From Patescibacteria group bacterium (lineage in GTDB: Bacteria; Patescibacteriota; WWE3; UBA101185; 2-01-FULL-41-18), in the NCBI GenBank assembly GCA_038064575.1, contig JBBTST010000005.1, positions 1,382 through 65,381 on the forward strand: 64,000 nucleotides of DNA, read 5' to 3'. Positions 2,046 through 36,168 of this stretch are shown piece after piece. The translations under genes were made by a program, and so were the position numbers. A model generated the notes under the pieces. That model was not told where the DNA came from, did no database searches, and was given only the letters and a program-made list of their open reading frames with translations. Numbering within the stretch: position 1 is the stretch's first letter; every line of letters starts with the position of its first letter.

Positions 2046-3659
2046 ATGGATGACAATATTGCCAAAAATGTGAACATTTTGATTGATGAGCTCTGCAAAC
2101 CACCGGATAAGAGCCTATTTGACAGCAAAACCAATAAAATTGAGGTCAGCTCCGCAACAAGTATGGTCTCTACTATCTACGAGCGCATCAGAAATGTAAT
2201 AGACTTCAAAGACGAACATTTCATCAGAAGATTTGCCATCCAGCGCTTTTTAAGAGTTTACCTTTCCTCAAAATCAAATCCGGAAGAAACTTCTGAGATT
2301 TTGTATAAGGACTTGCTCAGAGGAAAATATATCAATGAGTCACATGTTTCAGACAGAAGAGCAGAAGAGATCTCCCAAATACTCAAAAGATACGTTTTTG
2401 CAAAACAGACATTAAATGAACTTAGAATTTCTGATAACCAGGGAACACTGTGGGATTTTATGCTTGGTGTTGCAGCCTCAGAAATTGAAAATGTTATAGA
2501 TCCAAACTACAAACCTGAAGTTTTTATTAAGCTTATGGCCCAATACATTCTCAAAGCATTGAGAGGTTCTAATCTTGACCTTTCACCTGAACAGGAAGGT
2601 ATACATGTTTTTATAGCTTGCCACAAAGCTTTGGTCAGGTCGGATTATGCAATTTTAAGATACCACGCCCTCAGAATTTTATATCCTCAGTTCTTTGGTG
2701 TTTTTGATGAGCAAACTGTAAAGGCGGTTGTCAAGAGCCTTCCGGATACCAAAAAATATGTTGACGGCATAATAAAAAGCAGGACTCAGGAAGTGCTGTC
2801 AATCCAGGTGAGAAAGCTTGCGCCTCCTTTTAAGGTTTTGTATGGCACGCTTGAAAAAAACAAGGATCGGGTTAGTTCAATTCTATTCTCTCCCCCCTTG
2901 CTAAGAGATAAAGCAGATGAATTTATGGAATCTTATTATGTTGAGCTCAAAAAAAAATTAAGCTTAAGAATTACCAGAACCCTAATCTATCTATTCATAA
3001 CAAAAATGCTTTTGGCTATATTAATTGAGGCTCCTGTTGATTTATATATAATAAAGCACGTCAATTATATTTCACTTGCAATCAATACTTTCTTCCCTGT
3101 TTTGCTTTTTTTCTTTATAGCTAAAAAAATCACCATTCCTGGTAGAGACAATTCCAATAAAATCCATGAGCTTATTCACATGGTTGTATATGAGGATAAG
3201 CTTTTTGCATCAGATTTGGAAGAAGCCCTGTTTAGAAAAAGGTTGCACGCAAATTATAAAGATAAAAGTTGGCTTTCTCTTGTTTACGCTGCTCTCTACA
3301 TCCTTGTTTATGGATTGATTGCTGTACTTCTTAGTAAAATAGGTTTCAATGTCACAAGCATTTTCCTCTTTTACTTCTTTGTTTCGGTTTTAAGCTTTTT
3401 TGCTTGGAATATCAGAGCAAGGAGTAAAGACCTTCAAATTATTGGAAAGAGAGATAATGTAATTGAAGCTATTTTAAATGTGGTGGCTCTGCCTATATTA
3501 AAGGTTGGTCAAATACTATCAGTTGAAGTTGCCAGATTTAACTTTTTCTCTCTTGCTTTTGACCTTATTTTAGAAGCGCCTTTTAAGATAATTGTTCAAT
3601 CAATTGAAGATCTAATTGATTTTCTTAAATCAAAACATGAAGAAGTAGTAGAAAACTAA
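2046..3659 (+). CDS. hypothetical integral membrane protein (537 aa)
   Basis: Long ORF with several hydrophobic helices in the C-terminal half. No family recognised. Confidence 0.5.
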   Translation: MDDNIAKNVNILIDELCKPPDKSLFDSKTNKIEVSSATSMVSTIYERIRNVIDFKDEHFIRRFAIQRFLRVYLSSKSNPEETSEILYKDLLRGKYINESHVSDRRAEEISQILKRYVFAKQTLNELRISDNQGTLWDFMLGVAASEIENVIDPNYKPEVFIKLMAQYILKALRGSNLDLSPEQEGIHVFIACHKALVRSDYAILRYHALRILYPQFFGVFDEQTVKAVVKSLPDTKKYVDGIIKSRTQEVLSIQVRKLAPPFKVLYGTLEKNKDRVSSILFSPPLLRDKADEFMESYYVELKKKLSLRITRTLIYLFITKMLLAILIEAPVDLYIIKHVNYISLAINTFFPVLLFFFIAKKITIPGRDNSNKIHELIHMVVYEDKLFASDLEEALFRKRLHANYKDKSWLSLVYAALYILVYGLIAVLLSKIGFNVTSIFLFYFFVSVLSFFAWNIRARSKDLQIIGKRDNVIEAILNVVALPILKVGQILSVEVARFNFFSLAFDLILEAPFKIIVQSIEDLIDFLKSKHEEVVEN

Positions 3660-24492: not shown

Positions 24493-25653
24493 TTATAGCT
24501 TCTCACGCGATAAGTGCATAGAAGCATTACCTCTATCTAATAAGTCTTTATATGTAATCACTTCAATACCATGTAGTGCATGATTCATCTTTCTCAGAGC
24601 ATCTCTCTTATATATGTCCCAGTTAGTACTATCGCCAATTAAAATATAGGCATGGGGTTTGAGCAAAGATAGCTCAATATTATATATTTGAGCAATATTA
24701 GGTTCAATTTCTCTTCTTAGCCTATCAACTTCACTCAAGTAATTAATAACCTGTCCTATAGCAACATTTGTTTCTGCTGACCATCGCCATGCATTAGTAT
24801 GACTAGTGTCTTTAATAATAACCTCATCTGATGGGAGTTTAATTTCCAGAATGTCTACAAATCCATCTAGTGTAGGAAATAGGTAGTCGGGCATAATACC
24901 TGTTAGATTTATCTTTGCTTTCTCAATAGGTTTTTGGTAGTTCACACCAAATAACCAGTTATTTTTATAAATCCATTTTTGCCATGAATCGTCACCTGTA
25001 GTTTCCGAATAATTACCGTGTTCTAATCTCATACCGAGTTCATCGATCACATTCTGCTTTTTGCTTTGAATTCGTGCATATGTTAATTTTTGGATTAAAG
25101 TAGGATTTGATTCTGATAGATATACCCATACGTCTTCACCATATCCCGCATCAATAAGTTTCTTAACATAAGCAACTTTATTTTCGTCTGTTATTATGAC
25201 TTTTTCTGGATCAACTATAGTGTAAGAAGTTGCATCAAAATCAATTTCTTCAATACCTTTTATAAAATTTATTAATCCAAAGAAGTTTTCATGACACGAA
25301 TCCAAATCAACTCTTGCTTTAATAAGCTTGTCATCTTGCGTTTCCTTCGAGAAATTGCTAATTGCTTTATTAGAAATGTCTCTTATTTCAAATGAAAATC
25401 GTGGTGTAAACTTTCCATTTTCCTTTTTTATTAATGTAATTACACATGACTTTTCTACCTTAGCGGATTCCTCTAAGACAAATCTTTTTATAAGACCTTT
25501 TTTTGTATTTTTGAAGTACCAAAAACCATTGGTGCCAGTTTTGTCAATCTCAATTGTTGTTAAAGAATCAGAACCAACCACAAAATCTGTGTTTTCGTAA
25601 TCAGGTTCTACCGCCCACATTTTTAGTCGTTTTCGCTGATCATCAGTTAACAT
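24493..25653 (-). CDS. Shedu-like (DUF4263) PD-(D/E)xK nuclease, candidate antiphage effector SduA
   Basis: 386 aa. The C-terminal region carries MPDYLF...(14 aa)...DILEIK, a PD / ExK triad with the spacing seen in characterised SduA. A variable N-terminal domain is typical for Shedu. Confidence 0.5.
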   Translation of the reverse strand: MLTDDQRKRLKMWAVEPDYENTDFVVGSDSLTTIEIDKTGTNGFWYFKNTKKGLIKRFVLEESAKVEKSCVITLIKKENGKFTPRFSFEIRDISNKAISNFSKETQDDKLIKARVDLDSCHENFFGLINFIKGIEEIDFDATSYTIVDPEKVIITDENKVAYVKKLIDAGYGEDVWVYLSESNPTLIQKLTYARIQSKKQNVIDELGMRLEHGNYSETTGDDSWQKWIYKNNWLFGVNYQKPIEKAKINLTGIMPDYLFPTLDGFVDILEIKLPSDEVIIKDTSHTNAWRWSAETNVAIGQVINYLSEVDRLRREIEPNIAQIYNIELSLLKPHAYILIGDSTNWDIYKRDALRKMNHALHGIEVITYKDLLDRGNASMHLSREKL

Positions 25654-25784: not shown

Positions 25785-27461
25785 CTACTTATTATCTGTT
25801 ACGCGAGCAACTAATTTCTTCCCATCCTCAGACCAAGATAGTTTTACGCTTCGTTCTGGTTTCCTAGGATATTTCTCTAAAAATTCTTTGTTTTCGGAAA
25901 TTAAATAGACTGTACAGTATGTTCTTCCATCAGGTCTTTTTAGTTTCCTGCCGTGTAAAATACCTTCTCGTTCAAGTTTACCTCTAGTAGCAGGCTGAAC
26001 ACTAAATTCGGACTTAATTTCGTATTCTTTAATCCAAATCTTATTATCATGATCCCAACTTAAAGATGGGATAATACCTTCCTTAATGTTTCTCCAACAA
26101 TCAGCACATCTTAAACCATCAAGATTCCACCATATTTTATTACTTTCTATTGTTTCTCTACATATAGCACAGGTATAGTGACCTTCCGTAGGTTCGAGAA
26201 AAAATCCCTCTGGTTCTTTTTCTAGTCTTCTCTTTCTGATGTTTTCTACAGCTTCTTGTTTGCCTTGGATTTTCGCCATTTGGACATAAGGGTGGTTTGC
26301 ATACTTAGACTTCTTTATAGGGTCAAAGTCCTGTTTCTTATCCTCTTTAACTTTTCCTGCTATTTCTAACAAATCCTCCTCTCGCTCATACCCTTTTAAT
26401 TTGCCAGAGATGTAACCTAATCTGTCACTAAGACCTTCATTCATTAAACGCCAGTTTGTATCTTCTAATTTTGTTTTTAATAGTTTTTGAAGATCATATT
26501 GTGAAGTCCTTTTATTACGAGTGGGGTCGGAATCTTGAAAAGAGAAAGGTACGATAACATGCCTATCAATTTCAGGTTTATCGAAAAAAAGCTTAGTATA
26601 TTTATGTTCATCTAAAATGCTACTAAGCATTGCTTCAAGATCCGCAATACTTAATCTTTTTAATCTTGATACTTTTTCATAAATTGGGTTATCAATCTCA
26701 CGCTTAACCTCTTCCTTTACAAAAGAAGCATACTCGGACGCTTCCATTAGTTCGATTGCTTCTGCTCCCTTTTCTTCATCAAGACAGAATTCACTTCTAT
26801 ATTTTTCAAGTAATGCTTTATCTTCGTCTTCTTTAGCTTTACGTTCTGCTCTGCTTTTTCCGAAATCGTTAACGTCTGTATTTTTATAGCCACAAGATTT
26901 ACAAACAGTTTTCCAAGTTATTACCTCCCCTTTTCTAGTTTGAGAAACTTTTACTTCTTTATTACACTTAGGACAAAGCTGTGGCTTAGATTCGTGGATT
27001 TCTCCGTTGTCGTAAACAGCAGTTTTCTTAGTACATTTTGTGCAGTCGAAAAAGAACAGTACTCTAAGAGGTTTATCTGTCCAATCGTTTTCTAGAGTCT
27101 TAAATGTTGTTTTCATAGCGGAGTTACAATCAGGACACCTTATGTCTTGTGGTTCAGAAGTATTATCGTATTTGTCTTGAAACTTTTGATCTCGGTCTAT
27201 CCACTCATTTAGTCGTGTCTTTTTATTTTGAAACTCTAAACCCTTTTTAACATACAGGCTTACATTTAACATGTATGAAAAGGCTTTATGTCGCTCTTCG
27301 TCTGGTTTGTCCTTTAACTTTTCATCGTTGGAGCTGTTTTGATAGGCTTTCTGGCATATGCGGATATGGTCTAGGCATTCTTTAATTGTGAATAAGTCGT
27401 ATAGATCAATATAGTATTGTTCAGATTTAAGGTGTTTTTCACCCCTATCTTTTTCTTCCAC
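25785..27461 (-). CDS. multi-zinc-ribbon protein of unknown function (558 aa)
   Basis: Six CxxC pairs form three predicted zinc ribbons: CPDC/CTKC, CPKC/CKSC and CAIC/CADC. No enzymatic motif recognised. Last gene of a tightly spaced three-gene operon with 12- and 17-nt gaps. Confidence 0.5.
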   Translation of the reverse strand: MEEKDRGEKHLKSEQYYIDLYDLFTIKECLDHIRICQKAYQNSSNDEKLKDKPDEERHKAFSYMLNVSLYVKKGLEFQNKKTRLNEWIDRDQKFQDKYDNTSEPQDIRCPDCNSAMKTTFKTLENDWTDKPLRVLFFFDCTKCTKKTAVYDNGEIHESKPQLCPKCNKEVKVSQTRKGEVITWKTVCKSCGYKNTDVNDFGKSRAERKAKEDEDKALLEKYRSEFCLDEEKGAEAIELMEASEYASFVKEEVKREIDNPIYEKVSRLKRLSIADLEAMLSSILDEHKYTKLFFDKPEIDRHVIVPFSFQDSDPTRNKRTSQYDLQKLLKTKLEDTNWRLMNEGLSDRLGYISGKLKGYEREEDLLEIAGKVKEDKKQDFDPIKKSKYANHPYVQMAKIQGKQEAVENIRKRRLEKEPEGFFLEPTEGHYTCAICRETIESNKIWWNLDGLRCADCWRNIKEGIIPSLSWDHDNKIWIKEYEIKSEFSVQPATRGKLEREGILHGRKLKRPDGRTYCTVYLISENKEFLEKYPRKPERSVKLSWSEDGKKLVARVTDNK

Positions 27462-27703: not shown

Positions 27704-29197
27704 TCACTTCATTTGCTGAGCTGCCAGATAATCTTTAATTACCATGGTTGCTTTACAGTCATCCTCGTTGTAATCCAGAATCCTTTGTAATTTTTTTGGG
27801 TCTTGGTCTTTTAAATACTCGTTATACCACTGAATAGACAACGCTCCAGATGGTGTTTCATCCCTCCATTTAAACCCGAGATATTGGGCAATTTCTTTTA
27901 CTGAATAACTACCTAACGGCCAGTCTGTGTGGGGCAAAATCACATGGGTATATAAATCAACTGCTATTTCCTTATCAAAAAATGCTTCAAGTTCTTCTTC
28001 TGTTACAACATTAGGGTAAAGTTCTCTCATTTTCTTATAAATTGTTTTCTCATGCTGGGAGTAGTAATAAACTGCAAAATCATCTGTTGGTAATGATCGA
28101 ATGTATTCCCAAAATTCAATCCAAGCCTGTTTCTCGGCTTCTGGTGTTGTATCTGATGCTACAAAGGGTACAAATCGTTCACCATTTGGCGATCTTTCAT
28201 AAACTCCGTGCAAATAGACCATTTCTTGCGTTGGATCATCCTCAATATCAAAGTATAGTTCATAAGATTTTTGTGGAAATTCTAGATGTTTGTAAATCAC
28301 TGGTTTTGAATTGCTATTTAGGAGAAACGCTCTTTGCACTATTTTAGTTAAAGTTTTTTCAGCGATACCAGAAAGAAAATTCTTATCTGTAGCTTTCTTT
28401 GCCATAACCTCGGCTACATTTACATTTATAATATCTTCAACGCGTTCAATGCCTAAGTCTTCATTTAGTTTATCCCTTTTACTTCTTCCTAAATAAAAAA
28501 TAGTTGTTAAGTCGTGTGTATTTTTAGCCCATGTTTTGCAACTTTTATACCAAGGGCAGAGTTTACAAATTCCTGCCATTGCAGGTTTGTTTTGTATTTT
28601 ATTATCAAGCATTAACTCTACTTCATTTCTTATTTCATAATAGAACTGCCACCAAGTATTTTTGTTCTTTATACCTATTTCATTTTGAAGATCGTAAATC
28701 ACTTCTTGATTGTGAATATCTATAATTCTAGCTTTATCAGAGTTAGCAAATCCAAGCTTTTTTAGGATCTCCACATAGTGACATAGCTGCACAGCATAGT
28801 GTTTTTTGTATTTTTCTTCACCTTCTTCATCAGATCCTTCAAATCCGCGTCCACTCTTTATATCTATAGGAGTATATGTACCATCCTCATTACTTTTTAG
28901 TAGATCCGGAATTCCTAAAAGATTTTCGTGCATTAATACACCTTGATAAATAAGACCCGTGCCTTTTTTCATTTCTTCGATTGTTTCTTCAAAGCGTTGT
29001 TCGTAGCTCCCTTCAGATAAGTTTGCTAATTGGCCTAATGTAGAAACCACTTTACCTTCGTGTAATACTCCCTTATCCCAAAGCAATTGCACAAATGGGT
29101 TTGGTTCTGGGTTCTTTTCTTCTTGTGGACCGTACTTATCCCTCCACACTCGGTGCGTACATTGTAAGTAGTTGTACAAAGTTGAAGCGGATATCAT
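27704..29197 (-). CDS. TM0106-family RecB/Cas4-like Fe-S nuclease
   Basis: 497 aa. N-terminal Cys (LQCTHRVWRDKYGP) plus CKLCPWYKSCKTW give a four-Cys Fe-S cluster pattern as in Cas4/AddB. Nuclease motifs GIPDLL...IDIKS are present. The C-terminal half is RNase-H-like, as in TIGR03491 proteins. Confidence 0.65.
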   Translation of the reverse strand: MISASTLYNYLQCTHRVWRDKYGPQEEKNPEPNPFVQLLWDKGVLHEGKVVSTLGQLANLSEGSYEQRFEETIEEMKKGTGLIYQGVLMHENLLGIPDLLKSNEDGTYTPIDIKSGRGFEGSDEEGEEKYKKHYAVQLCHYVEILKKLGFANSDKARIIDIHNQEVIYDLQNEIGIKNKNTWWQFYYEIRNEVELMLDNKIQNKPAMAGICKLCPWYKSCKTWAKNTHDLTTIFYLGRSKRDKLNEDLGIERVEDIINVNVAEVMAKKATDKNFLSGIAEKTLTKIVQRAFLLNSNSKPVIYKHLEFPQKSYELYFDIEDDPTQEMVYLHGVYERSPNGERFVPFVASDTTPEAEKQAWIEFWEYIRSLPTDDFAVYYYSQHEKTIYKKMRELYPNVVTEEELEAFFDKEIAVDLYTHVILPHTDWPLGSYSVKEIAQYLGFKWRDETPSGALSIQWYNEYLKDQDPKKLQRILDYNEDDCKATMVIKDYLAAQQMK

Positions 29198-29290: not shown

Positions 29291-29704
29291 TTATACCCTC
29301 CTAATTTTATCTATCAAAAACTTTATATAGTAACCTTTGCTAGATTTGACCTGTATGTACATATCATTTAGTAAATAGTTTCCAAAATGTCGTGGTTCAT
29401 TGTCTTGTCGATAATAGAAAGTTATAGGGGCTCTCTTTTTGTATTGGTTAGTTAGATACTCTTTAATGTAGTCTAAATCCTGCTCTCTATTAAACCTATC
29501 TACCGTATTTCTGGCATGTTTGAGGGGTTTTGGAATCTCAGCTTTTTTTGGGATATTATTTTTGGTATTAAAGTCCCAATGTTTCGCACAATTAGGACAC
29601 TTAAAAACACTGCCCTTACTTAGGTTTAATTTTAAAGTAATACCACAGGTGCAAACCACAAATTTGTAGGAATTGTTTTCGTTAGTTTTTATATTGTAAG
29701 GCAA
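29291..29704 (-). CDS. small zinc-ribbon protein. The annotated start is TTG; the frame stays open upstream to 29908.
   Basis: 137 aa with a CTCG...CPNC ribbon. The same frame stays open for 68 more codons upstream with no ATG/GTG/TTG. That stretch encodes a second ribbon, CDIC-x17-CLDC, and overlaps the end of the helicase gene. Confidence 0.45.
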   Translation of the reverse strand: MPYNIKTNENNSYKFVVCTCGITLKLNLSKGSVFKCPNCAKHWDFNTKNNIPKKAEIPKPLKHARNTVDRFNREQDLDYIKEYLTNQYKKRAPITFYYRQDNEPRHFGNYLLNDMYIQVKSSKGYYIKFLIDKIRRV

Positions 29705-29889
29705 TCGCTTTCGAAAAGCGTGTAAAGTTATGCCATGTGTGCTTTCATAGCAGTCTAAGCAATTATTAATAGTTTTATATGGAAACTGTTTGGCAGCAAA
29801 TATCTTATTACAAATATCGCAAGCTCTACTAACGCCATTCTCAAGATCTTCAATTTGAGCGTGTATGTTCTCAATTGTATTTGAAATTA

Positions 29890-32800
29890 TTATTTTTTTT
29901 TTACTATTTCATTAATTCTAGCGTCTAGTGTTGCAACCGGATCTTTACCTATATTAAATCTGTTTATTCTTAAAAAGCTGTAACCGTAGCCTTCTAGAAC
30001 TTTTTGTCTATATATGTCTTCACTGTTCATGTAACTTATATAGTTTGAGGCATTCACATTTTCTAGTTGCGTAAAATGTTCCCTAAAACCATCATACTCA
30101 ACAATTATCTTTTTGTTTTTAAAAATTAGTAAGAAGTCGACTTTATATTCTGGATATGTATATTCTCTAGATAATTGTTTAAGATACTTACCTAAATCGA
30201 ATTGGGGTATAAATTCTATAGTATCCTTGTTGTCTTTATAAAACTTAGTCAAATAGAATATTTCTTGAATTTTAACTTCCATTGGGGAATTTGGATCTGT
30301 ACCTCCTATGATGGTGTTTTTTCCGTTTATCAGTTCATCTCTGTAGTGTATTAGTGCATTCCTAAGCTCACCTTTAAACTCCTCAATTGGTTTACTAAGC
30401 ACAAAATGAATACAATCTTTCGCTCTACTAAACCCTACATTCAGGCGCTGTGCTTTGACATTGTCCTTATTTTCATCAAACAGTACAGGAAATATCCAAT
30501 TAAGCATGTCCTTTTCTTTTGTTGCTACCATAGAATAGAAAATATAATCACGTTCTTCCCCCTGACATGTGTCGAATGTCATGATTTTCAATTTACGATC
30601 ACTAAACAACCATTCCCTTTCCTCTAGCTTGTTCAATACATCAAATAAAAGTGTCACTTGTTCTCTATGTGGAGTTATTATTCCAATAGTTTTAGTGAAG
30701 CCATCTGCCTTTAGTTGCTTAATTACATTAACTATATGCTTTATTTCCAGTTCATTTGTATTGCTATTTTTATCAAGTTTCCCATCATGTTTAATTACAT
30801 CAAACTTAATAACTTCGGTTAGTGGAACACCTCTAATTTTCATACTTTGCAACGTATTATGATAAAAGTATTTATCTGAATAAGATATTATTTCAGGGTA
30901 ACATCGAAAGTGTTTTTGTAATTGACACTGGTAGTTTCTAATAAAACGTGAAAATTTCAGTATTGAGTTCTTAATGTCAAAGTTATCTCTTACCTTTGTT
31001 TCCCAGCCCATCTTATCTTCTCCATTTATCTTTTCTGCTCTAAAAACCTCCTTTATACGTGTTTTATATTGCTGATTGGTTACAGTGCTTGCATTGCCCG
31101 CTTTTACATTCGAAAACTGCTTATCATCTCCTAAAACAATTACTTGTTTACCTCGAATTAGGGCAGGCAAGGCTTGAGATATACTCACTTGAGATGCTTC
31201 ATCGATAATAATTAGATCAAATAAATCTTTTTCTAACGGTATGTATTCAGCATAATCTCTTATTCCAGCTAAAATGCAGGGAAAAGCTTTTTTTAAATTT
31301 TTAAACAGTGCTATAGGGAATTCTTGTTTATTTTTAAGTATAGTTTTAAGTGTATTAACCTCCCCTGCATTATCTTGAGAATACTCGATTATTCTTTTGT
31401 CCAAGAAATAGGTCATTTGAGCAGTTATTAATTGCTCTACAGTCTCAATTCTAGTTATATAGTCATCCGCAGGTGCATTTGTAAAACTGTTTGTTAGCTT
31501 CGATTCTAGATGTTTATAATCAATGATTTCTCCTAATAATTCTTCTGACTTTTCCAACAGAAGAAAATCAAATTCATTTATGTTACCTTCAATATTTATA
31601 TTTAACTCTTTAGCCAGTCCTGGATGTAATTCTATAAATTCCTCCACATACTCAAAGTTTTTGGAAAGCTTAGCTAACACCAAACATGAATTACAATATT
31701 CTTTGATTCTTTCAGTATTGATATCATTTTTTATAACATCAGTGCTTAATTCCTTATCGATAATTTTAAGTCCTTCGTTCTCTAAATAAACAAAGCCGGC
31801 ATTTAACTCGCTTGAGATACGCTCTAAATTTAGTATGTCTACATAACAGAGCAATAATTTTGGATTAAGATTCTTAAGAGCATCAAAGTTAACAATTATA
31901 TTGTGTATTTCCTTTATATCTGTGAAAAACTCATCAAACGCATTAATATAATCAGAATTCTTGTAATTACTTAAAAGCTGAAAGACATTATCAAATGTTT
32001 CGCGTTTTCTACTTACAATCTTAGATTGAATAAAATAAAGTAGGTCATATAAGTATGTTATAGAGTCGAGTTTTTTTTCAGGATTCTCAATATTAAAGTA
32101 GTTAAATGTTTTCTTAAGCTCTCTTGTTAAATCATTAAGTTCACTCTTATTGAAAAAAAAGCCAAAAATAGGTTTACGCAAACTTTTAACATTCTTTATA
32201 TATTTATTAAGCGCATTCAGTGCTGTGTCTAGATCGATGTCAGGATCCACATATAAATCATGTAGCTTACCAAGATCGTTAGAATACTTTTGGTTAAACT
32301 TCAATGCGTTTTGAAAAAGATTCTGTACAAAAACTACGTCACCATAAACATATTCCAGTTCTGAAAACAAGTTACTTTTTAACCATTGTTTGTATAGAGG
32401 CCACTCACTAAGGGCTTTTAGAGAAATAATATGATTGAAGATAGCTTCGACCCGTAATATATGTTTTATAGATAATAAGTTACTTGCCTTATCCTTCCCC
32501 AATACAGGACCTAATTCTCTATAAGCATCATTTGTTTTCTTACCTTCTAGAGAACTAATGATTTGTTTTGAAGTTTCAACATTTTTTAAAAGTTCTTGTA
32601 GTTTTTCTGTATTCTTCTCATTTATAAAACTTTTGCTGTAATTGGCATTTGTGTGAAAAGACAGTTGTTCAAGTAGTTCTTTTAATTTTGGTAACTTTTC
32701 TAAACCTTCTAGGTCTTCGTTTTTAATTAGATCGTTTTCAAATGAAAGCTTATTTTCTAGTTCAAAGTACCTAATAATATCGTCAATACTAATTGCGTCA

Positions 32801-34551
32801 AAGTGCTTAATAGTTGTCTCTAAATCATTTTTTAGCTTAGTAAGTAAGAGATCTTTCTGTTGTACGGTCGATTCTTGTGTCTTTTTATATGCTAGATAAT
32901 GATTCTTTATTTTTTGAATTGTCTGACCTTGGACAATTTTATAAAACTTGTTTCCGGACCCACCTAATCTTAAAATGGGATTCTGAAAATCCTCTTCGTG
33001 CCTAATCTTATTTAATGTCCCCGCAATTTTTTCCTCTACAACATCTAAAGCCTCTTTTTTATCGGAAAGTACAAGGACTGATTTTTCCTCTAGTAAAGCT
33101 TTACATATGATTGCTGTGATTGTGTGACTTTTACCAGTTCCTGGGGGGCCTTCAAGTATCATAAATTTACAATCGGGTTTTTGCAGTGCCATCAATACTT
33201 GTTTCTGCTCATCATTAAGTGGAATTGGACTTTCAACAATAAGCTTAGTAGAGCAGCTCAGTTCCTGCCATTCTGTATCAATCTCATCAATAAAAGATTT
33301 CGGATTTTCCTTTATAAACCCATCTAATAAATGCGTGAAGTCTTCTATAAGTTCACCATCATCGTTTAGTATTTTCTCATAATCATTAATGAGTGCTTCA
33401 TCAGATTTGTCAAAAAGAAATATATAACATTTATTAGACAACCCTGTAATTAAACTTAGTCCTTTTTGCAATCTGGCATCCTGTATATCTATTGTCAGAC
33501 CTAACTCTAAAAAGTTTTCTATTTTTCTTACTATTGTTGTTACTTTATCAAAAAAATCATCTTCACTATTAATATAAATAACTCTTTCAAAATCTACGGC
33601 AAGTGTAGACTTTCTGTTTGATTGGCGATTGAATTCCTGCACTACAAAATCTAAACCTTGTGAATTTACATATATTCTATGTTCAAAATTTAATATAAAT
33701 CTGTCCTCATCTTTTTCTACATGTATAGGCATATAGAATAGTGGAAAAGTTTCATTACCCAAAGATAGCTCAAAGAAATAAAAGTAAATTTCCGTTTTAT
33801 CTATCAATTTACCGTTCCTATATATTTGATATAGCTCGGAAAATAAATCGCTTACAGCACTATTTTCGAAAAACATTGTTAGCTTTGCCTTCAGACTTTC
33901 CAAAGGTATGATCTCTTCTAAAGCGCTAACGATATCGAAATCAACAGCACCTTCTTTTACTTCAAATATTTTCTGTAGTAGATCAGTTAATTGATTTTCT
34001 ACATCGCCAAAAAGAGTATCTATGATATCTGTCTCAAGCTGAAATTTACTGTTTTCGTCCGCCAAGCCGAGATTTTCTAGTGGTTTATCTAAATCTTGTA
34101 AAAATGGGTAGATTAATACTTTCGAATAAGAGCTTTTAATTGAACTGATGCCTTCTTCCAAATACTGATCATACGAATCATTGTACTTAGTTTTGCAGTC
34201 ATAAATGCGTTTTTCTATCTCTATATGTGCCTGAGTGATATCTTTGCTTTTTAATGCTTCAACTCTAGAAATTATTAGTTTTAATAGTGATGTTGGAATT
34301 TTAGTAGTATATTCATTTTTTTTAACTACTAAAGATTGATTTTCAAAAGATTTGGCAAATTGCTTGAGAAGAGCCTGCTTAAAATCAATAAATTTATCTA
34401 AATCTACTGCGACTTTCAAACCATTGTTTGTTTTCTGTATTGTATTTCTTTTTGGCACTCTTCTCTTCTTGAAGTCAGTTTCAAGAAAGTTCATAAAGTA
34501 TTTTGCAACCTCTTTAACAAAGTTGTTTGGTTCAGTGACTGCTTTTGCCAT
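29890..34551 (-). CDS. giant UPF1/DNA2-like SF1B helicase with a C-terminal DUF559/Vsr-like PD-(D/E)xK endonuclease domain
   Basis: 1553 aa. Walker A is LEGPPGTGKSHTI and motif II is IIIDEASQV...VLGDDKQF. A second RecA-like domain is IMTFDTCQGEERDYIFYSMV. The C-terminus, VDFLL...IIVEYDGFREH, has the DUF559 / REase_MTES_1575-type fold. There is a long N-terminal alpha-rich region of about 450 aa. Confidence 0.75.
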   Translation of the reverse strand: MAKAVTEPNNFVKEVAKYFMNFLETDFKKRRVPKRNTIQKTNNGLKVAVDLDKFIDFKQALLKQFAKSFENQSLVVKKNEYTTKIPTSLLKLIISRVEALKSKDITQAHIEIEKRIYDCKTKYNDSYDQYLEEGISSIKSSYSKVLIYPFLQDLDKPLENLGLADENSKFQLETDIIDTLFGDVENQLTDLLQKIFEVKEGAVDFDIVSALEEIIPLESLKAKLTMFFENSAVSDLFSELYQIYRNGKLIDKTEIYFYFFELSLGNETFPLFYMPIHVEKDEDRFILNFEHRIYVNSQGLDFVVQEFNRQSNRKSTLAVDFERVIYINSEDDFFDKVTTIVRKIENFLELGLTIDIQDARLQKGLSLITGLSNKCYIFLFDKSDEALINDYEKILNDDGELIEDFTHLLDGFIKENPKSFIDEIDTEWQELSCSTKLIVESPIPLNDEQKQVLMALQKPDCKFMILEGPPGTGKSHTITAIICKALLEEKSVLVLSDKKEALDVVEEKIAGTLNKIRHEEDFQNPILRLGGSGNKFYKIVQGQTIQKIKNHYLAYKKTQESTVQQKDLLLTKLKNDLETTIKHFDAISIDDIIRYFELENKLSFENDLIKNEDLEGLEKLPKLKELLEQLSFHTNANYSKSFINEKNTEKLQELLKNVETSKQIISSLEGKKTNDAYRELGPVLGKDKASNLLSIKHILRVEAIFNHIISLKALSEWPLYKQWLKSNLFSELEYVYGDVVFVQNLFQNALKFNQKYSNDLGKLHDLYVDPDIDLDTALNALNKYIKNVKSLRKPIFGFFFNKSELNDLTRELKKTFNYFNIENPEKKLDSITYLYDLLYFIQSKIVSRKRETFDNVFQLLSNYKNSDYINAFDEFFTDIKEIHNIIVNFDALKNLNPKLLLCYVDILNLERISSELNAGFVYLENEGLKIIDKELSTDVIKNDINTERIKEYCNSCLVLAKLSKNFEYVEEFIELHPGLAKELNINIEGNINEFDFLLLEKSEELLGEIIDYKHLESKLTNSFTNAPADDYITRIETVEQLITAQMTYFLDKRIIEYSQDNAGEVNTLKTILKNKQEFPIALFKNLKKAFPCILAGIRDYAEYIPLEKDLFDLIIIDEASQVSISQALPALIRGKQVIVLGDDKQFSNVKAGNASTVTNQQYKTRIKEVFRAEKINGEDKMGWETKVRDNFDIKNSILKFSRFIRNYQCQLQKHFRCYPEIISYSDKYFYHNTLQSMKIRGVPLTEVIKFDVIKHDGKLDKNSNTNELEIKHIVNVIKQLKADGFTKTIGIITPHREQVTLLFDVLNKLEEREWLFSDRKLKIMTFDTCQGEERDYIFYSMVATKEKDMLNWIFPVLFDENKDNVKAQRLNVGFSRAKDCIHFVLSKPIEEFKGELRNALIHYRDELINGKNTIIGGTDPNSPMEVKIQEIFYLTKFYKDNKDTIEFIPQFDLGKYLKQLSREYTYPEYKVDFLLIFKNKKIIVEYDGFREHFTQLENVNASNYISYMNSEDIYRQKVLEGYGYSFLRINRFNIGKDPVATLDARINEIVKKK
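29893..29902 (-). repeat. A10 homopolymer on the coding strand (T10 on plus), directly abutting the helicase stop codon
   Basis: Minus-strand sequence is GTA-A10-TAA. The A-run forms the terminal KKK codons of the helicase. One extra A, or a -1 slip, enters the start-less zinc-ribbon frame. Confidence 0.8.
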
Positions 34552-34815: not shown

Positions 34816-36168
34816 ATGACTAACAAACTTAGTGGTATCAATGATGCCAAGCTACAAATATTTAATTTGAACATAAAGGATATTAATCCTTCCGCCTATA
34901 ACCCTCGAAAATGGGATAAGTATAAAATTGACCAATTAACCAAAAGTATTACTGACTTTGGTGTTGTAGATCCTTTAGTAATTAATTCCGCCGAAAACAG
35001 AAAGAATATAGTTATTGGCGGTCATTTTAGACTTAAAGTCTTAAAAGAAATGGGATATATCGAAGTCCCATGTGTGTATGTAAATATCCCTGAGATTGAA
35101 CGTGAAAAAGAATTAAATTTAAGACTAAACAAAGCCGTTGGTGATTGGGATTTCAAACTTCTGGCTGAGTTTGATACATCCCTTTTATCAAACGTTGGTT
35201 TTTCAAGCGAAGAGTTAGATCAAATATTTGATATTGATGATTCACCAGAGCAATTTGATTTAGAAAAAGAACTTAATAAACTAAACATTAAAAATATCAC
35301 TATTAAAAAAGGCGATGTAATTTCTCTTGGAAATAGTAAATTAATGTGTGGGGATTCTACAGTCGAGGAGGATATGTTAAAGCTGATGAATGGAGAGAAA
35401 GCAGACATGTGCTTCACAGACCCACCCTATCTATTGGATTATTTAAACGGAAAAAAGAAAGGTGGTAAAGCAACAACAGGATTTGGAGCCAAAAGAAATC
35501 GCCGTTATCTCGAAACAGACACATTACCAGATGACTTCACAGAGAAATGGATGGCGAACATTAATAAAATCCAAAACGATAGTTTCTCCATAATAGTCTA
35601 CGAAAATTGGAAGAACATAAGAACTATTTGGGGAGAACTTGAGAAATATTGGAAGGTAAAAAACATGATTGTTTGGAGATTACCCAACAGGGTGCAGGGT
35701 TTTTCTGGTAAATATAGATTCTTTTCCAAACATGATATTGCTATGGTTGGAGCTTCACCTAACACAGATATTGAGTTCAACATGGAAACAGAGCCAGATG
35801 GTTTGCAGGAGGAATATGAAACAGCTCTTTATGCGATATCAGGTAAACCACAATGGGAAAGCTATAAAAAAGGCAAGAAGTATCAGCCAACAGACTTTAT
35901 TGATTACAAAGCCTCCGATGAAAAGAGCTCTGGGCAAGGAGTAGTATTTGGTACTAAGCCAATCGAAATATTAATACCATACATAAAAGTATTAACTAGA
36001 AGAAATGAATTAATCGTTGAACCTTTTGGTGGTAGTGGATCTACTCTTATTGCAGCAACAAAAATGAGACGTAGGTGTTATGTAATGGAGAAATCTCCTG
36101 TTTATGCTGAAGTTATTGTTAAAAGATGGGAGAAGTTAACTGGTTTAAAGGCGAAAGTTAATGCCTAA
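34816..36168 (+). CDS. ParB-like nuclease domain / DNA (amino) methyltransferase fusion
   Basis: 450 aa. The N-terminal ParB/Srx fold is present (DPLVIN...GGHFRLKVLKEMGY). The C-terminal MTase has motif IV DPPY (MCFTDPPYL) and motif I FGGSGST, a beta-class order consistent with N6-adenine (or N4-cytosine) methylation. Confidence 0.75.
   Translation: MTNKLSGINDAKLQIFNLNIKDINPSAYNPRKWDKYKIDQLTKSITDFGVVDPLVINSAENRKNIVIGGHFRLKVLKEMGYIEVPCVYVNIPEIEREKELNLRLNKAVGDWDFKLLAEFDTSLLSNVGFSSEELDQIFDIDDSPEQFDLEKELNKLNIKNITIKKGDVISLGNSKLMCGDSTVEEDMLKLMNGEKADMCFTDPPYLLDYLNGKKKGGKATTGFGAKRNRRYLETDTLPDDFTEKWMANINKIQNDSFSIIVYENWKNIRTIWGELEKYWKVKNMIVWRLPNRVQGFSGKYRFFSKHDIAMVGASPNTDIEFNMETEPDGLQEEYETALYAISGKPQWESYKKGKKYQPTDFIDYKASDEKSSGQGVVFGTKPIEILIPYIKVLTRRNELIVEPFGGSGSTLIAATKMRRRCYVMEKSPVYAEVIVKRWEKLTGLKAKVNA

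What the first reader, a model, noticed from the sequence alone, without database searches (positions are those of the whole stretch)
29704..29911. A10 homopolymer at the helicase stop codon can fuse the 1553-aa helicase-nuclease to a start-less zinc-ribbon ORF: candidate phase-variation or -1 frameshift switch
On the coding (minus) strand the helicase ends GTA-AAAAAAAAAA-TAA. This is T10 at plus 29893-29902, with the stop at 29890-29892.

The downstream ORF is annotated from a TTG at 29704. Its frame stays open upstream to a TGA at 29909-29911. I translated that stretch codon by codon. It contains no ATG, GTG or TTG for 68 codons. It still encodes a clean zinc ribbon, CDIC-x17-CLDC.

The downstream frame is the -1 frame of the helicase. 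An 11th A, whether from genomic, transcriptional or reading slippage, gives GTA AAA AAA AAA ATA ATA ATT and reads straight into it. So does a -1 ribosomal slip on the A AAA AAA motif. Either event would append about 204 aa with two zinc ribbons to the helicase-nuclease.

A coding zinc ribbon with no start codon, placed exactly after a 10-mer homopolymer, is hard to explain by chance. It points to a contingency (phase-variable) locus or programmed frameshift inside a defence-type gene.

The alternative is a sequencing indel in the homopolymer. In that case the true gene is a single 1757-aa ORF.
Basis: seen in the sequence. Interest (0 to 1): 0.75.

Follow-up and report, generated by a model that had tools for sequence, protein, structure and literature searches.

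The report
Conserved poly-A frameshift in a helicase-nuclease
A run of ten A's at the end of a large helicase-nuclease gene of a Patescibacteria genome is a conserved recoding site, found in more than 50 diverged relatives, where slippage by one base should add a zinc-ribbon and WYL-like sensor tail to a fraction of the protein, so one gene probably makes two versions of the enzyme.

Summary
The 1553-aa helicase-nuclease ORF (minus strand) ends GT-A10-TAA. The -1 frame stays open across the run and encodes 200 more residues. It has no ATG, GTG or TTG for 68 codons.

The run is neither chance nor error. Four independent assemblies of this locus all read A10. Among 160 related loci, 56 non-redundant ones share the layout: a run of at least nine A's (A9 in 49, A10 in 6, A12 in 1), a 0-frame stop 0-48 nt later, a closed +1 frame, and a homologous tail of 93-327 aa in the -1 frame. 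Of these, 49 have no canonical start before the first zinc-ribbon cysteine.

T-A9 is invariant in 53/53 aligned loci, including a synonymous site. Codon-position conservation switches from the 0 frame to the -1 frame at the run. The sister clade carries a homologous tail in frame without a long run. A few nested relatives are in frame yet keep A9-A11.

No conserved RNA structure flanks the run. Best reading: programmed recoding, by RNA-polymerase slippage and/or a -1 ribosomal slip on A_AAA_AAN, giving tail-less and tailed isoforms. Phase variation, sequencing error and a separate gene are disfavoured. It is a new member of a known kind of mechanism. No expression data exist.

The parts
29890..34551 (-). 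0-frame ORF, 1553 aa. It has an N-terminal region of unknown function, an SF1 helicase core (AAA_11 and AAA_12) and a C-terminal Vsr/DUF559-like endonuclease domain. NCBI lists it as MEK7595367.1, 'AAA domain-containing protein', Patescibacteria group bacterium.
32533..33219 (-). Helicase motor, N-terminal half (Pfam AAA_11, residues 445-673).
   Evidence: E 1.2e-18
30403..30954 (-). Helicase motor, C-terminal half (Pfam AAA_12, residues 1200-1383).
   Evidence: E 5.2e-23
29893..30246 (-). Vsr/DUF559/MTES_1575-like endonuclease domain (residues about 1436-1553). The D...EYDGxxxH motif is invariant in relatives. The domain ends in V-K-K-K, which is encoded by the A-run.
   Evidence: JGI names relatives 'very-short-patch-repair endonuclease'.
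29893..29902 (-). Slippery run A10 (GT-A10-TAA), the recoding site. It contains in-phase A_AAA_AAA heptamers. It exceeds the 9-nt length at which bacterial RNA polymerase slips efficiently.
   Evidence: PMC5009743 and PMC1088944 for the 9-nt length.
29890..29892 (-). 0-frame stop codon TAA, directly after the run. It ends the tail-less isoform.
29909..29911 (-). TGA that closes the -1 frame 4 codons upstream of the last in-run -1 codon. The tail frame therefore cannot be entered from further upstream.
29291..29893 (-). -1-frame tail coding region: 200 aa plus stop. There is no ATG/GTG/TTG before the TTG at 29704. GenBank annotates only a 137-aa fragment (MEK7595366.1).
29750..29821 (-). Zinc ribbon 1 of the tail (CDIC-x16-CLDC, tail residues 25-48). 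It lies a fixed 24-27 codons after the run in all relatives.
29588..29653 (-). Zinc ribbon 2 of the tail (CTC-x15-CPNC, tail residues 81-102). This insert is variable and is absent in some relatives, for example L006.
29294..29479 (-). C-terminal WYL-like Sm/SH3 beta-barrel domain of the tail (tail residues about 139-200). It ends in the signature ...KGYYIKFLIDKIRRV.

Best explanation
The A-run is a programmed recoding site at the boundary between the endonuclease domain and a C-terminal tail.

Standard decoding of the DNA sequence gives a 1553-aa tail-less helicase-nuclease that stops at the TAA after the run. In a fraction of expression events the frame shifts by -1 inside the run. The result is a 1753-aa isoform that carries a helix, one or two zinc ribbons and a WYL-like beta-barrel, most likely a nucleic-acid or ligand-binding module.

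I think the main route is transcriptional slippage: RNA polymerase realigns on the T-run of the template strand and inserts one extra A. A -1 tandem ribosomal slip on the in-phase A_AAA_AAA/G/C heptamer probably contributes as well.

Shown: the conservation of the run, of the frame relation and of the coding tail, and the lack of an independent start. Inferred: that the shift happens, at which level it happens, its efficiency, and what the two isoforms do.

I put 0.85 on programmed recoding of either kind. The 0.5 given as confidence is for transcription being the main level.
For: 1. Reproducibility. A10 is read in four assemblies of the locus, from one ENA assembly and three Logan run assemblies. 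Six further locus pairs have identical tails in the metagenome and genome collections, and each pair reads the same run length.

2. Conservation of the layout. There are 56 non-redundant loci, in 30 clusters below 80% nt identity with a median pairwise identity of 56%. Run lengths are A9 x49, A10 x6 and A12 x1. The 0-frame stop lies 0-48 nt after the run. The +1 frame closes within 2-18 codons. The -1 frame runs on for 93-327 aa.

3. No independent start. 49/56 loci have no ATG/GTG/TTG between the upstream stop of the -1 frame and the first Cys, and 55/56 have no ATG. In L037 and L099 a TAA in the -1 frame overlaps the start of the run, so entry into that frame must occur inside the run.

4. 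Nucleotide-level selection. T-A9 is invariant in 53/53 aligned loci, including the wobble base of the Val/Leu codon. In the same genes GTA is 25% of Val codons and AAA 79% of Lys codons, which gives about 0.16 per lineage by chance. Codon-position diversity switches from 0-frame phase to -1-frame phase exactly at the run.

5. The fused protein is the family norm. The sister clade (about 95 loci) carries a homologous N-terminal tail segment in frame (..NIHETIEGLQNGEMKECPKCK..), with runs of 8 A's or fewer.

6. Features that favour the transcriptional route.
- The run is always at least 9 nt long. That is the length at which bacterial RNA polymerase slips efficiently and at which selection against such runs appears (PMC5009743, PMC1088944).
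- There is no conserved RNA structure or Shine-Dalgarno-like stimulator.
- Nested in-frame relatives keep A9-A11, and both alternative frames close within 0-14 codons. This is the Thermus dnaX layout.
- The site persists in MAGs labelled as several phyla.
Against: - There are no expression data of any kind: no RNA-seq, no ribosome profiling, no proteomics. Neither the trans-frame protein nor heterogeneous mRNA has been observed.
- The run also forms perfect in-phase -1 heptamers, A_AAA_AAG in 28 loci and A_AAA_AAC in 24. IS1 shows that such a motif can work without a stimulator (PMC4066793). The ribosomal route therefore explains the same data nearly as well.
- The invariant wobble A also creates a second in-phase heptamer, so it does not discriminate between the two routes.
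- RNA-polymerase slippage thresholds depend on the organism (PMC1088944) and are unknown for Patescibacteria.
- MAG taxonomic labels may be unreliable.
- Only the best 80 loci of each scan were examined.
Confidence: 0.5

Rival explanations
1. Purely translational programmed -1 ribosomal frameshifting. The mRNA carries the templated A10 (A9 in most relatives). A fraction of ribosomes slip back one base on the in-phase heptamer, A_AAA_AAA here and A_AAA_AAG or A_AAA_AAC in relatives. They then continue into the tail frame.
For: - An in-phase X_XXY_YYZ heptamer is present in all 56 loci.
- A_AAA_AAG is associated with high frameshifting efficiency in E. coli, and IS1 uses A_AAA_AAC with no known stimulator (PMC4066793).
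- The 0-frame stop lies directly at or near the site in several loci, including the window.
- Ribosomes are also reported to slide on iterated AAA codons (PMC4363877, title and abstract only).
Against: - No conserved downstream hairpin or pseudoknot and no upstream Shine-Dalgarno-like element was found.
- Only 6-7 A's are needed for a heptamer, yet every locus keeps at least 9.
- In-frame relatives also keep A9-A11.
Confidence: 0.33
2. DNA-level phase variation (a contingency locus). Slipped-strand mispairing during replication changes the run length. This switches the tail ON and OFF heritably in subpopulations.
For: - A homopolymer of 9-12 nt in a coding region is mutable in principle (PMC1088944, PMC3711429).
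- The gene sits among defence-like and restriction-modification-like genes.
- Both in-frame and out-of-frame states exist among relatives.
Against: - No run-length polymorphism was seen. Four assemblies of this locus all read A10. Six locus pairs with identical tails from different collections read the same run length.
- 49/56 runs are exactly A9. Where I compared A10 loci base by base with A9 loci (window, L005, L006), the run starts at the same codon position and needs the same -1 shift. For the window and L005 the extra A sits where A9 loci have G or C.
- None of the 53 loci whose run starts at codon position 3 is in the ON length.
- In the two cases examined, the in-frame state arises by changes outside the run, for example an extra T upstream in L091.
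- Real contingency loci show broad length distributions (my own knowledge).
Confidence: 0.07
3. Two separate genes. The tail ORF is translated on its own, from a non-canonical start (ATA or ATT) or by termination-reinitiation after the helicase stop.
For: - Near-cognate ATA/ATT codons follow the run in the window.
- Gene callers annotate short separate ORFs in nearly all relatives.
- A few loci have a TTG at the conserved Leu of the LHxQI motif.
Against: - 49/56 loci have no canonical start, and no Shine-Dalgarno-like element is conserved.
- Conservation in the -1 frame begins at the run itself, with a fixed spacing of 24-27 codons to the first Cys.
- The homologous tail is covalently fused in the sister clade and in seven nested in-frame relatives.
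- The invariant A-run would be left unexplained.
Confidence: 0.05
4. An artefact or decay: a sequencing or assembly indel in the homopolymer (true gene a single ORF), or a pseudogene.
For: Homopolymers are error-prone in some sequencing chemistries. One related contig (L005) shows an assembly artefact elsewhere in the gene.
Against: - The same frame break occurs in 56 non-redundant loci from many projects and assemblers.
- Four assemblies of this locus agree.
- Both halves show a coding pattern of codon-position conservation, each in its own frame.
Confidence: 0.03

Closest known systems
Thermus thermophilus dnaX (transcriptional slippage on A9 giving tau and gamma)
   Same: - A run of nine A's in the sense strand near the 3' part of the gene.
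- Slippage yields two isoforms with a common N-terminus, with or without a C-terminal module.
- No RNA stimulator is needed.
- The nested in-frame relatives here (A9-A11, both alternative frames closing within 0-14 codons) have the same layout (PMC1088944, PMC5009743).
   Different: - In the window and 55 other loci the long form is the trans-frame product and the short form is the templated one. That reversed arrangement is only proposed for some dnaX genes (PMC5009743, PMC3711429).
- The protein family is different.
- Nothing has been tested experimentally here.
E. coli dnaX -1 programmed ribosomal frameshift (A_AAA_AAG)
   Same: The same slippery heptamer, in phase, occurs in 28 of 56 loci. 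There are two isoforms, and a 0-frame or -1-frame stop lies close to the site.
   Different: - E. coli dnaX has an upstream Shine-Dalgarno-like element and a downstream hairpin (my own knowledge). None is conserved here.
- In dnaX the shift truncates the protein. Here it extends it.
IS-element transposase recoding (IS1 A_AAA_AAC; IS3 family OrfAB; A8/A9 runs in Deinococcus IS elements)
   Same: A -1 fusion of an upstream ORF to a start-less downstream ORF at an A-rich run. Both ribosomal and transcriptional routes are documented, and IS1 has no established stimulator (PMC4066793, PMC1088944).
   Different: This is not a transposase or a mobile-element gene. The upstream product is a large helicase-nuclease, and the appended part is a zinc-ribbon and WYL-like tail.
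Phase-variable restriction-modification and defence genes with homopolymer tracts
   Same: A homopolymer inside a gene that lies in a defence-like context. Frame state decides whether a domain is made.
   Different: The tract length is fixed across lineages and replicate assemblies, not polymorphic. The OFF-type frame is conserved over deep divergence.
SF1 helicases with an accessory WYL domain (Thermotoga elfii PIF1) and WYL sensors DriD, CapW, BrxR
   Different: - Sequence matches to Pfam WYL are only marginal (3/39 members, best E 0.054).
- Here the domain is attached through recoding.
- Ligand binding is untested.
Anti-phage helicases Hhe, ProA, Mokosh MkoA, PDC-S37
   Same: They share the UPF1/DNA2-like SF1 helicase core. 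The neighbourhood contains nuclease and methyltransferase genes.
   Different: Matches cover only the helicase core and fall far below family cut-offs: ProA 154 bits against 1500, Hhe 86 against 2000. The window gene is not a member of these families.

Membership tests
Programmed transcriptional realignment site (Thermus dnaX / IS type) | A homopolymeric A or T run of about 9 nt or more in the coding region | tested here: met
   A10 in the window. A9 to A12 in all 56 frameshifted loci and in 7 in-frame relatives of the same clade.
Programmed transcriptional realignment site (Thermus dnaX / IS type) | The run is conserved at nucleotide level beyond what the protein requires | tested here: met
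   T-A9 is invariant in 53/53 loci, including a Val/Leu wobble site. Chance expectation is about 0.16 per lineage, and there are 30 clusters below 80% nt identity.
Programmed transcriptional realignment site (Thermus dnaX / IS type) | mRNA population heterogeneous in run length, with the trans-frame protein detected | not testable with these tools
   No transcript or proteome data are available.
Programmed -1 ribosomal frameshift site | Slippery heptamer X_XXY_YYZ in phase with the 0 frame | tested here: met
   GTA AAA AAA AAA (window). A_AAA_AAG x28 and A_AAA_AAC x24 in relatives.
Programmed -1 ribosomal frameshift site | A -1 ORF that overlaps the site, lacks its own start and is conserved as coding sequence | tested here: met
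   49/56 loci have no ATG/GTG/TTG. Codon-position conservation switches to the -1 phase at the run.
Programmed -1 ribosomal frameshift site | A stimulatory element: a downstream hairpin or pseudoknot, or an upstream Shine-Dalgarno-like sequence. This is usual but not obligatory. | tested here: not met
   RNAalifold finds no consensus structure within -45 to +100 nt of the run, and the mean z-score of individual folds is -0.11. The window's own downstream 106 nt give z = 0.09. No Rfam frameshift element is found. No conserved Shine-Dalgarno-like sequence is seen.
Phase-variable contingency locus | Tract-length polymorphism between closely related genomes or assemblies, with both ON and OFF lengths | tested here: not met
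   Four assemblies all read A10. Six locus pairs with identical tails read the same run length, and 49/56 runs are exactly A9. The in-frame relatives L091 and L167 differ by changes outside the run. Read-level heterogeneity could not be tested.
WYL domain (tail C-terminus) | Sm/SH3-like beta-barrel with the WYL-type sequence signature | tested here: inconclusive
Hhe / ProA / Mokosh MkoA anti-phage helicases | Full-length match above the curated family cut-off | tested here: not met
   NCBIfam ProA scores 154 bits against a cut-off of 1500, and Hhe 86 against 2000. PADLOC hits cover only residues about 1090-1385.
Vsr/DUF559-like endonuclease (helicase C-terminus) | Match to DUF559 or MTES_1575 and a conserved catalytic-type motif | tested here: inconclusive
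   Pfam hits fall below gathering thresholds (MTES_1575 16 bits against 38.2; DUF559 15.1 against 20.6). D37, E50, D52 and H57 are invariant in alignment A4. Some relatives pass PF18741.

The most novel reading that the evidence does not exclude
The slippage ratio may be more than a fixed leak. It could be the functional design of a defence enzyme.

One version: a sub-stoichiometric tailed subunit carrying a WYL-like ssDNA or ligand sensor assembles with tail-less subunits, as tau and gamma do in the clamp loader, and licenses or restrains the nuclease.

A second version: the ratio itself responds to infection, through nucleotide-pool imbalance or through damage to or shortage of tRNA-Lys. The A-run would then act as a built-in sensor that switches the enzyme's form.

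Either version would be a recoding-based regulatory principle for an immune-type protein. It would be conserved across Patescibacteria and other phyla and would have arisen at least twice (the S clade and L100).
Probability: 0.15. Interest if true: 0.85.

Novelty: new member of a known kind. Interest (0 to 1): 0.66.

Why it matters
Well-supported recoding sites in non-mobile bacterial genes are few, to my knowledge (dnaX, prfB and a handful of others). This one is conserved over deep divergence in a large helicase-nuclease family that is abundant in Patescibacteria and also occurs in MAGs labelled Spirochaetota and Gammaproteobacteria. A separate frameshifted case in the sister clade comes from a MAG labelled Actinomycetota.

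Three consequences follow.

1. Annotation is wrong for the whole clade. Gene callers report a truncated helicase plus orphan 'hypothetical' ORFs of 40-250 aa.
2. One gene probably yields two enzyme forms, with and without a zinc-ribbon and WYL-like sensor tail. That gives a concrete handle on how such enzymes are regulated.
3. The clade offers a natural comparison for separating transcriptional from ribosomal slippage, because it contains both out-of-frame members (A9, A10 or A12) and in-frame members (A9-A11).

The four papers I text-searched did not describe this case. Antonov 2013 and Baranov 2005 contain no 'helicase' at all. The one mention in the Atkins 2016 main text is the RNA helicase HrpA. 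I did not search supplementary tables of recoding surveys.

Tried and rejected
1. Sequencing error. Rejected: four assemblies agree and 55 other loci share the frame break.

2. Independent initiation of the tail ORF. Rejected as the main route: there is no canonical start in 49/56 loci and no conserved Shine-Dalgarno-like sequence.

3. RNA stimulators. RNAalifold on 53 anchored junctions, shuffle z-scores, Rfam at permissive E-value and a single-sequence fold all found nothing.

4. Filing the helicase under Hhe, ProA, Mokosh or PDC-S37. Rejected: only the helicase core matches, far below cut-offs.

5. A conserved operon partner. The downstream RecB-like (TM0106 family) nuclease and the upstream ParB-methyltransferase recur next to homologues in only about 7-9 of 160 loci, mostly in the other clade. 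They are not obligatory partners.

6. A phage origin. Only 2 close relatives occur in 2.9 million viral contigs, and both have the in-frame tail.

7. Sequence searches of the tail against the PDB gave nothing significant. Only fold comparison pointed to WYL.

8. Literature searches for this case found the mechanism but not this family.

9. I could not discriminate transcriptional from ribosomal slippage by computation. The invariant wobble A also creates a second in-phase heptamer.
Full report
**The observation**

On the minus strand the 1553-aa ORF 34551..29890 ends ...ATA GTA AAA AAA AAA TAA. The A10 is at 29902-29893 and the stop at 29892-29890. The -1 frame is open from a TGA at 29911-29909 to a stop at 29293-29291. 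Its first ATG/GTG/TTG is the TTG at 29704, which is 68 codons in.

An mRNA with one extra A, or a -1 ribosomal slip, gives a 1753-aa protein whose last 200 residues come from this frame. The first zinc ribbon is CDIC-x16-CLDC rather than x17. The tail is 200 aa rather than about 204. The fused product is 1753 aa rather than 1757.

Runs of at least nine A's are rare in this window. There are two sites, against 19.1 +/- 6.75 matches expected from dinucleotide shuffles.

**What the gene is**

The ORF has an SF1 helicase core (Pfam AAA_11 and AAA_12) and a C-terminal Vsr/DUF559/MTES_1575-like endonuclease domain. The Pfam scores for that domain fall below threshold, but the D..EYDG..H motif is invariant among relatives.

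PADLOC and NCBIfam match only the helicase core of MkoA, PDC-S37, Hhe and ProA, far below family cut-offs. The gene is therefore not a member of those anti-phage families.

GenBank lists the helicase as MEK7595367.1 and a 137-aa fragment of the tail as MEK7595366.1, both from a Patescibacteria group MAG. Neighbouring genes are a TM0106-family RecB-like nuclease, a ParB-N6/N4 methyltransferase and a SduA_C (Shedu-type) protein. The context looks like a defence island. The defence role itself is inferred.

**It is not an error**

The same locus occurs in one ENA assembly and in three Logan run assemblies. All four read A10.

**Orthologues**

A word-based search with the tail found only three clusters. 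Their contigs showed the same arrangement:
- L005 has CT-A10-TAA.
- L006 has GT-A9-C with the 0-frame stop 19 nt later.
- In both, the tail is in the -1 frame and is open across the run.

A search with the helicase C-terminus gave two kinds of relative:
- Those at about 57-68% identity all end a few residues after VKKK or VKKN.
- Many of those at about 50% identity continue in frame into ..NIHETIEGLQNGEMKECPKCK.., which is homologous to the window's -1-frame IENIHAQIEDLENGVSRACDICNK. The rest of that in-frame tail contains topoisomerase-type zinc fingers.

I then fetched 160 loci with the nuclease domain as query, 80 from metagenomes and 80 from GTDB species genomes, and analysed the junctions by script.

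**The comparative result**

Fifty-six non-redundant loci, including the window, have the frameshifted layout.
- Run length is A9 in 49, A10 in 6 and A12 in 1.
- The run starts at the third position of a Val/Leu codon in 53 loci and at position 1 in 3.
- The next base is G in 28, C in 24 and T in 4.
- The 0-frame stop lies 0-48 nt after the run.
- The +1 frame closes within 2-18 codons.
- The -1 frame continues for 93-327 aa, with the first zinc-ribbon Cys a fixed 24-27 codons after the run.

Forty-nine of the 56 have no ATG/GTG/TTG anywhere between the upstream stop of the -1 frame and that Cys, and 55 have no ATG. In L037 and L099 a TAA in the -1 frame overlaps the first A's of the run, so that frame can only be entered inside the run.

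In 53 junctions aligned on the run, T-A9 is 100% invariant. Other wobble positions upstream have A in 0-79% of loci, with a mean of 42%. In the same genes GTA is 25% of Val codons and AAA 79% of Lys codons. V-K-K-K would therefore be spelled as an A9 run in only about 16% of lineages by chance. The set contains 30 clusters below 80% nt identity.

Mean pairwise diversity by codon position is 0.47, 0.18 and 0.57 upstream, in 0-frame phase. Downstream it is 0.50, 0.34 and 0.57 in -1-frame phase. The same downstream data phased on the 0 frame give a non-coding pattern. The tail is therefore coding, starting from the run itself.

**Evolution**

A neighbour-joining tree was built from the 300 residues up to the RINxFN motif plus the next 15 codons, ending before the run. 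It splits the family in two.
- In the first clade every member has a run of at least nine A's. This clade includes the window and all frameshifted loci in the tree except one.
- In the sister clade the zinc-finger tail is in frame, and runs are short or absent: no run of six or more A's in 64 of the 100 in-frame loci (four of which belong to the first clade), and never more than 8 in this clade.

The exception is L100, from a MAG labelled Actinomycetota. It lies inside the sister clade and has its own A10 with the tail in the -1 frame. That suggests an independent gain.

Within the first clade a few loci are in frame yet keep the long run:
- L091 has TGT-A9-G.
- The code-25 group L105, L115, L137 and L167 has TTC-A10.
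- L168 and L169/L170 have A11.

In all of them a +/-1 slip ends translation within 0-14 codons. The long A-run at the domain boundary is thus the constant feature. Which isoform is the templated one can flip.

An exhaustive profile search found 62 representatives of the tail family among 1.84 billion proteins. Nearly all are orphan ORFs of 42-250 aa, and only one is a full-length in-frame fusion (P0170, 1713 aa, the protein of L169). Two of the shorter representatives, P0160 and P0177, are fragments that run in frame from the nuclease domain into the tail. This shows how consistently annotation misses the fusion.

**Mechanism**

Two known mechanisms fit: RNA-polymerase slippage that inserts one A, and a -1 tandem ribosomal slip on A_AAA_AAA/G/C.

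No conserved structure or Shine-Dalgarno-like element accompanies the site.
- RNAalifold finds nothing from -45 to +100, and the mean z-score of individual folds is -0.11.
- The window's own downstream 106 nt give z = 0.09.
- Rfam finds no frameshift element.
- The upstream consensus has no Shine-Dalgarno-like sequence.

Published work bears on both routes.
- Bacterial RNA polymerase slips efficiently on runs of 9 A or T.
- Selection against such runs sets in at about 9 nt.
- Thermus dnaX uses an A9 run to make two isoforms at about 1:1 (PMC5009743, PMC1088944).
- A_AAA_AAG is among the most shift-prone heptamers in E. coli.
- IS1 uses A_AAA_AAC without a known stimulator (PMC4066793).

Four features lead me to favour transcription as the main level, at about 0.5 against about 0.33 for a purely ribosomal route:
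- the universal minimum of 9 A's;
- the missing stimulators;
- the dnaX-like in-frame variants;
- persistence of the site in MAGs labelled as several phyla.

The sequence data cannot separate the two routes. The invariant wobble A also creates a second in-phase heptamer.

Phase variation is unlikely. There is no length polymorphism among four assemblies of this locus or six locus pairs with identical tails. The length distribution is very narrow. The in-frame relatives I compared (L091, L167) differ by changes outside the run.

**What the tail is**

An AlphaFold2 model built with a 39-sequence alignment has a mean pLDDT of 85.9. It shows a helix, a zinc ribbon, a second zinc ribbon that is variable among relatives, a linker, and a helix followed by a five- or six-stranded barrel.

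The F[LR]ID[KR]IR signature ends 39 of 56 tails, and six more contain RTFRxDRM. Pfam WYL matches are marginal. I therefore call the domain WYL-like rather than a proven member.

From the PDB entry descriptions (DriD and CapW bound to ssDNA), the title of the Thermotoga elfii PIF1 preprint (10.1101/163188) and my own knowledge, WYL domains act as ssDNA or ligand sensors and can serve as an accessory ssDNA-binding module on an SF1 helicase.

The likely outcome of the recoding is two enzyme forms, a helicase-nuclease without and with a nucleic-acid-binding sensor tail. What the ratio is for is not known. It could set the stoichiometry of a mixed complex, limit a toxic or autoimmune form, or respond to conditions.

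**Verdict**

The frameshift or slippage reading is supported by strong comparative evidence. The sequencing-error, separate-gene and phase-variation readings are disfavoured.

The mechanism is of a known kind. Its use in this helicase-nuclease family, its depth of conservation and its apparent independent recurrence were not described in the literature I could search.

Limits of this work:
- There are no expression data.
- Only the best 80 loci per collection were examined.
- The tree is neighbour-joining with midpoint rooting.
- MAG taxonomy is taken at face value.

Noticed in passing
window 2949-2957 (+), inside ORF 2046-3659: This is the only other run of at least nine A's in the 64-kb window. 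It lies in frame (GAG CTC AAA AAA AAA TTA) within a 537-aa ORF. Such runs are about sevenfold depleted in the window overall. I did not check whether this one is conserved or used.
   Followed up: partly
window 27704-29197 (-), 34816-36168 (+), 24493-25653 (-): Three genes flank the helicase: a TM0106-family RecB-like nuclease (497 aa, DUF2779/RNase_H_2), a ParB_N-N6/N4 methyltransferase fusion (450 aa) and a SduA_C (Shedu-type) protein (386 aa). Homologues of the first two, at 58-75% identity, sit next to helicase homologues in about 7-9 other loci, mostly in the in-frame clade. They may form a loosely linked defence or modification module.
   Followed up: partly
L100 (Actinomycetota MAG JACUUO010000139.1), junction TTA GTA-A10-TTG TAA: A member of the in-frame, topoisomerase-zinc-finger-tail clade has acquired its own A10 run, with the tail in the -1 frame. 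This appears to be an independent origin of the same recoding layout.
   Followed up: partly
L105, L115, L137, L147, L162, L167; proteins P0013, P0014, P0017, P0160: Homologues labelled Gracilibacteria, Peribacteria or unclassified have in-frame TGA at conserved Gly positions (genetic code 25). Database translations show W instead of G, or truncate. In this group (L105, L115, L137, L167) the tail is in frame behind TTC-A10. The sister locus L147 has TTC-A12-TAA with the tail in the -1 frame.
   Followed up: partly
L005 2327-2560 (JGI Ga0255658_140677): The contig carries an inverted duplication of a helicase segment: mirror ORFs encode ...MTFDTCQGEERDYIFYSMVATKEKD... on the minus strand. It splits the helicase gene and is most likely an assembly chimera. 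The junction with the A10 run is unaffected.
   Followed up: no
tails of L008-L027 and others; alignment A5 columns about 140-240: Many tails carry one or two extra zinc ribbons of the pattern CPxCxSxxxxKKGxRxGKQRYxCxxCGxNW between the first ribbon and the WYL-like domain. Members match InsA- and IS1595-type transposase zinc-ribbon models. The window has a shorter CTC...CPNC version. A few tails end instead in a topoisomerase-type zinc finger (L010, L026).
   Followed up: no
window 25785-27461 (-), 558 aa: This large ORF downstream of the KTSC gene has no family assignment apart from a faint ZPR1 zinc-finger hit. A 40%-identical homologue lies near the helicase homologue in L108.
   Followed up: no
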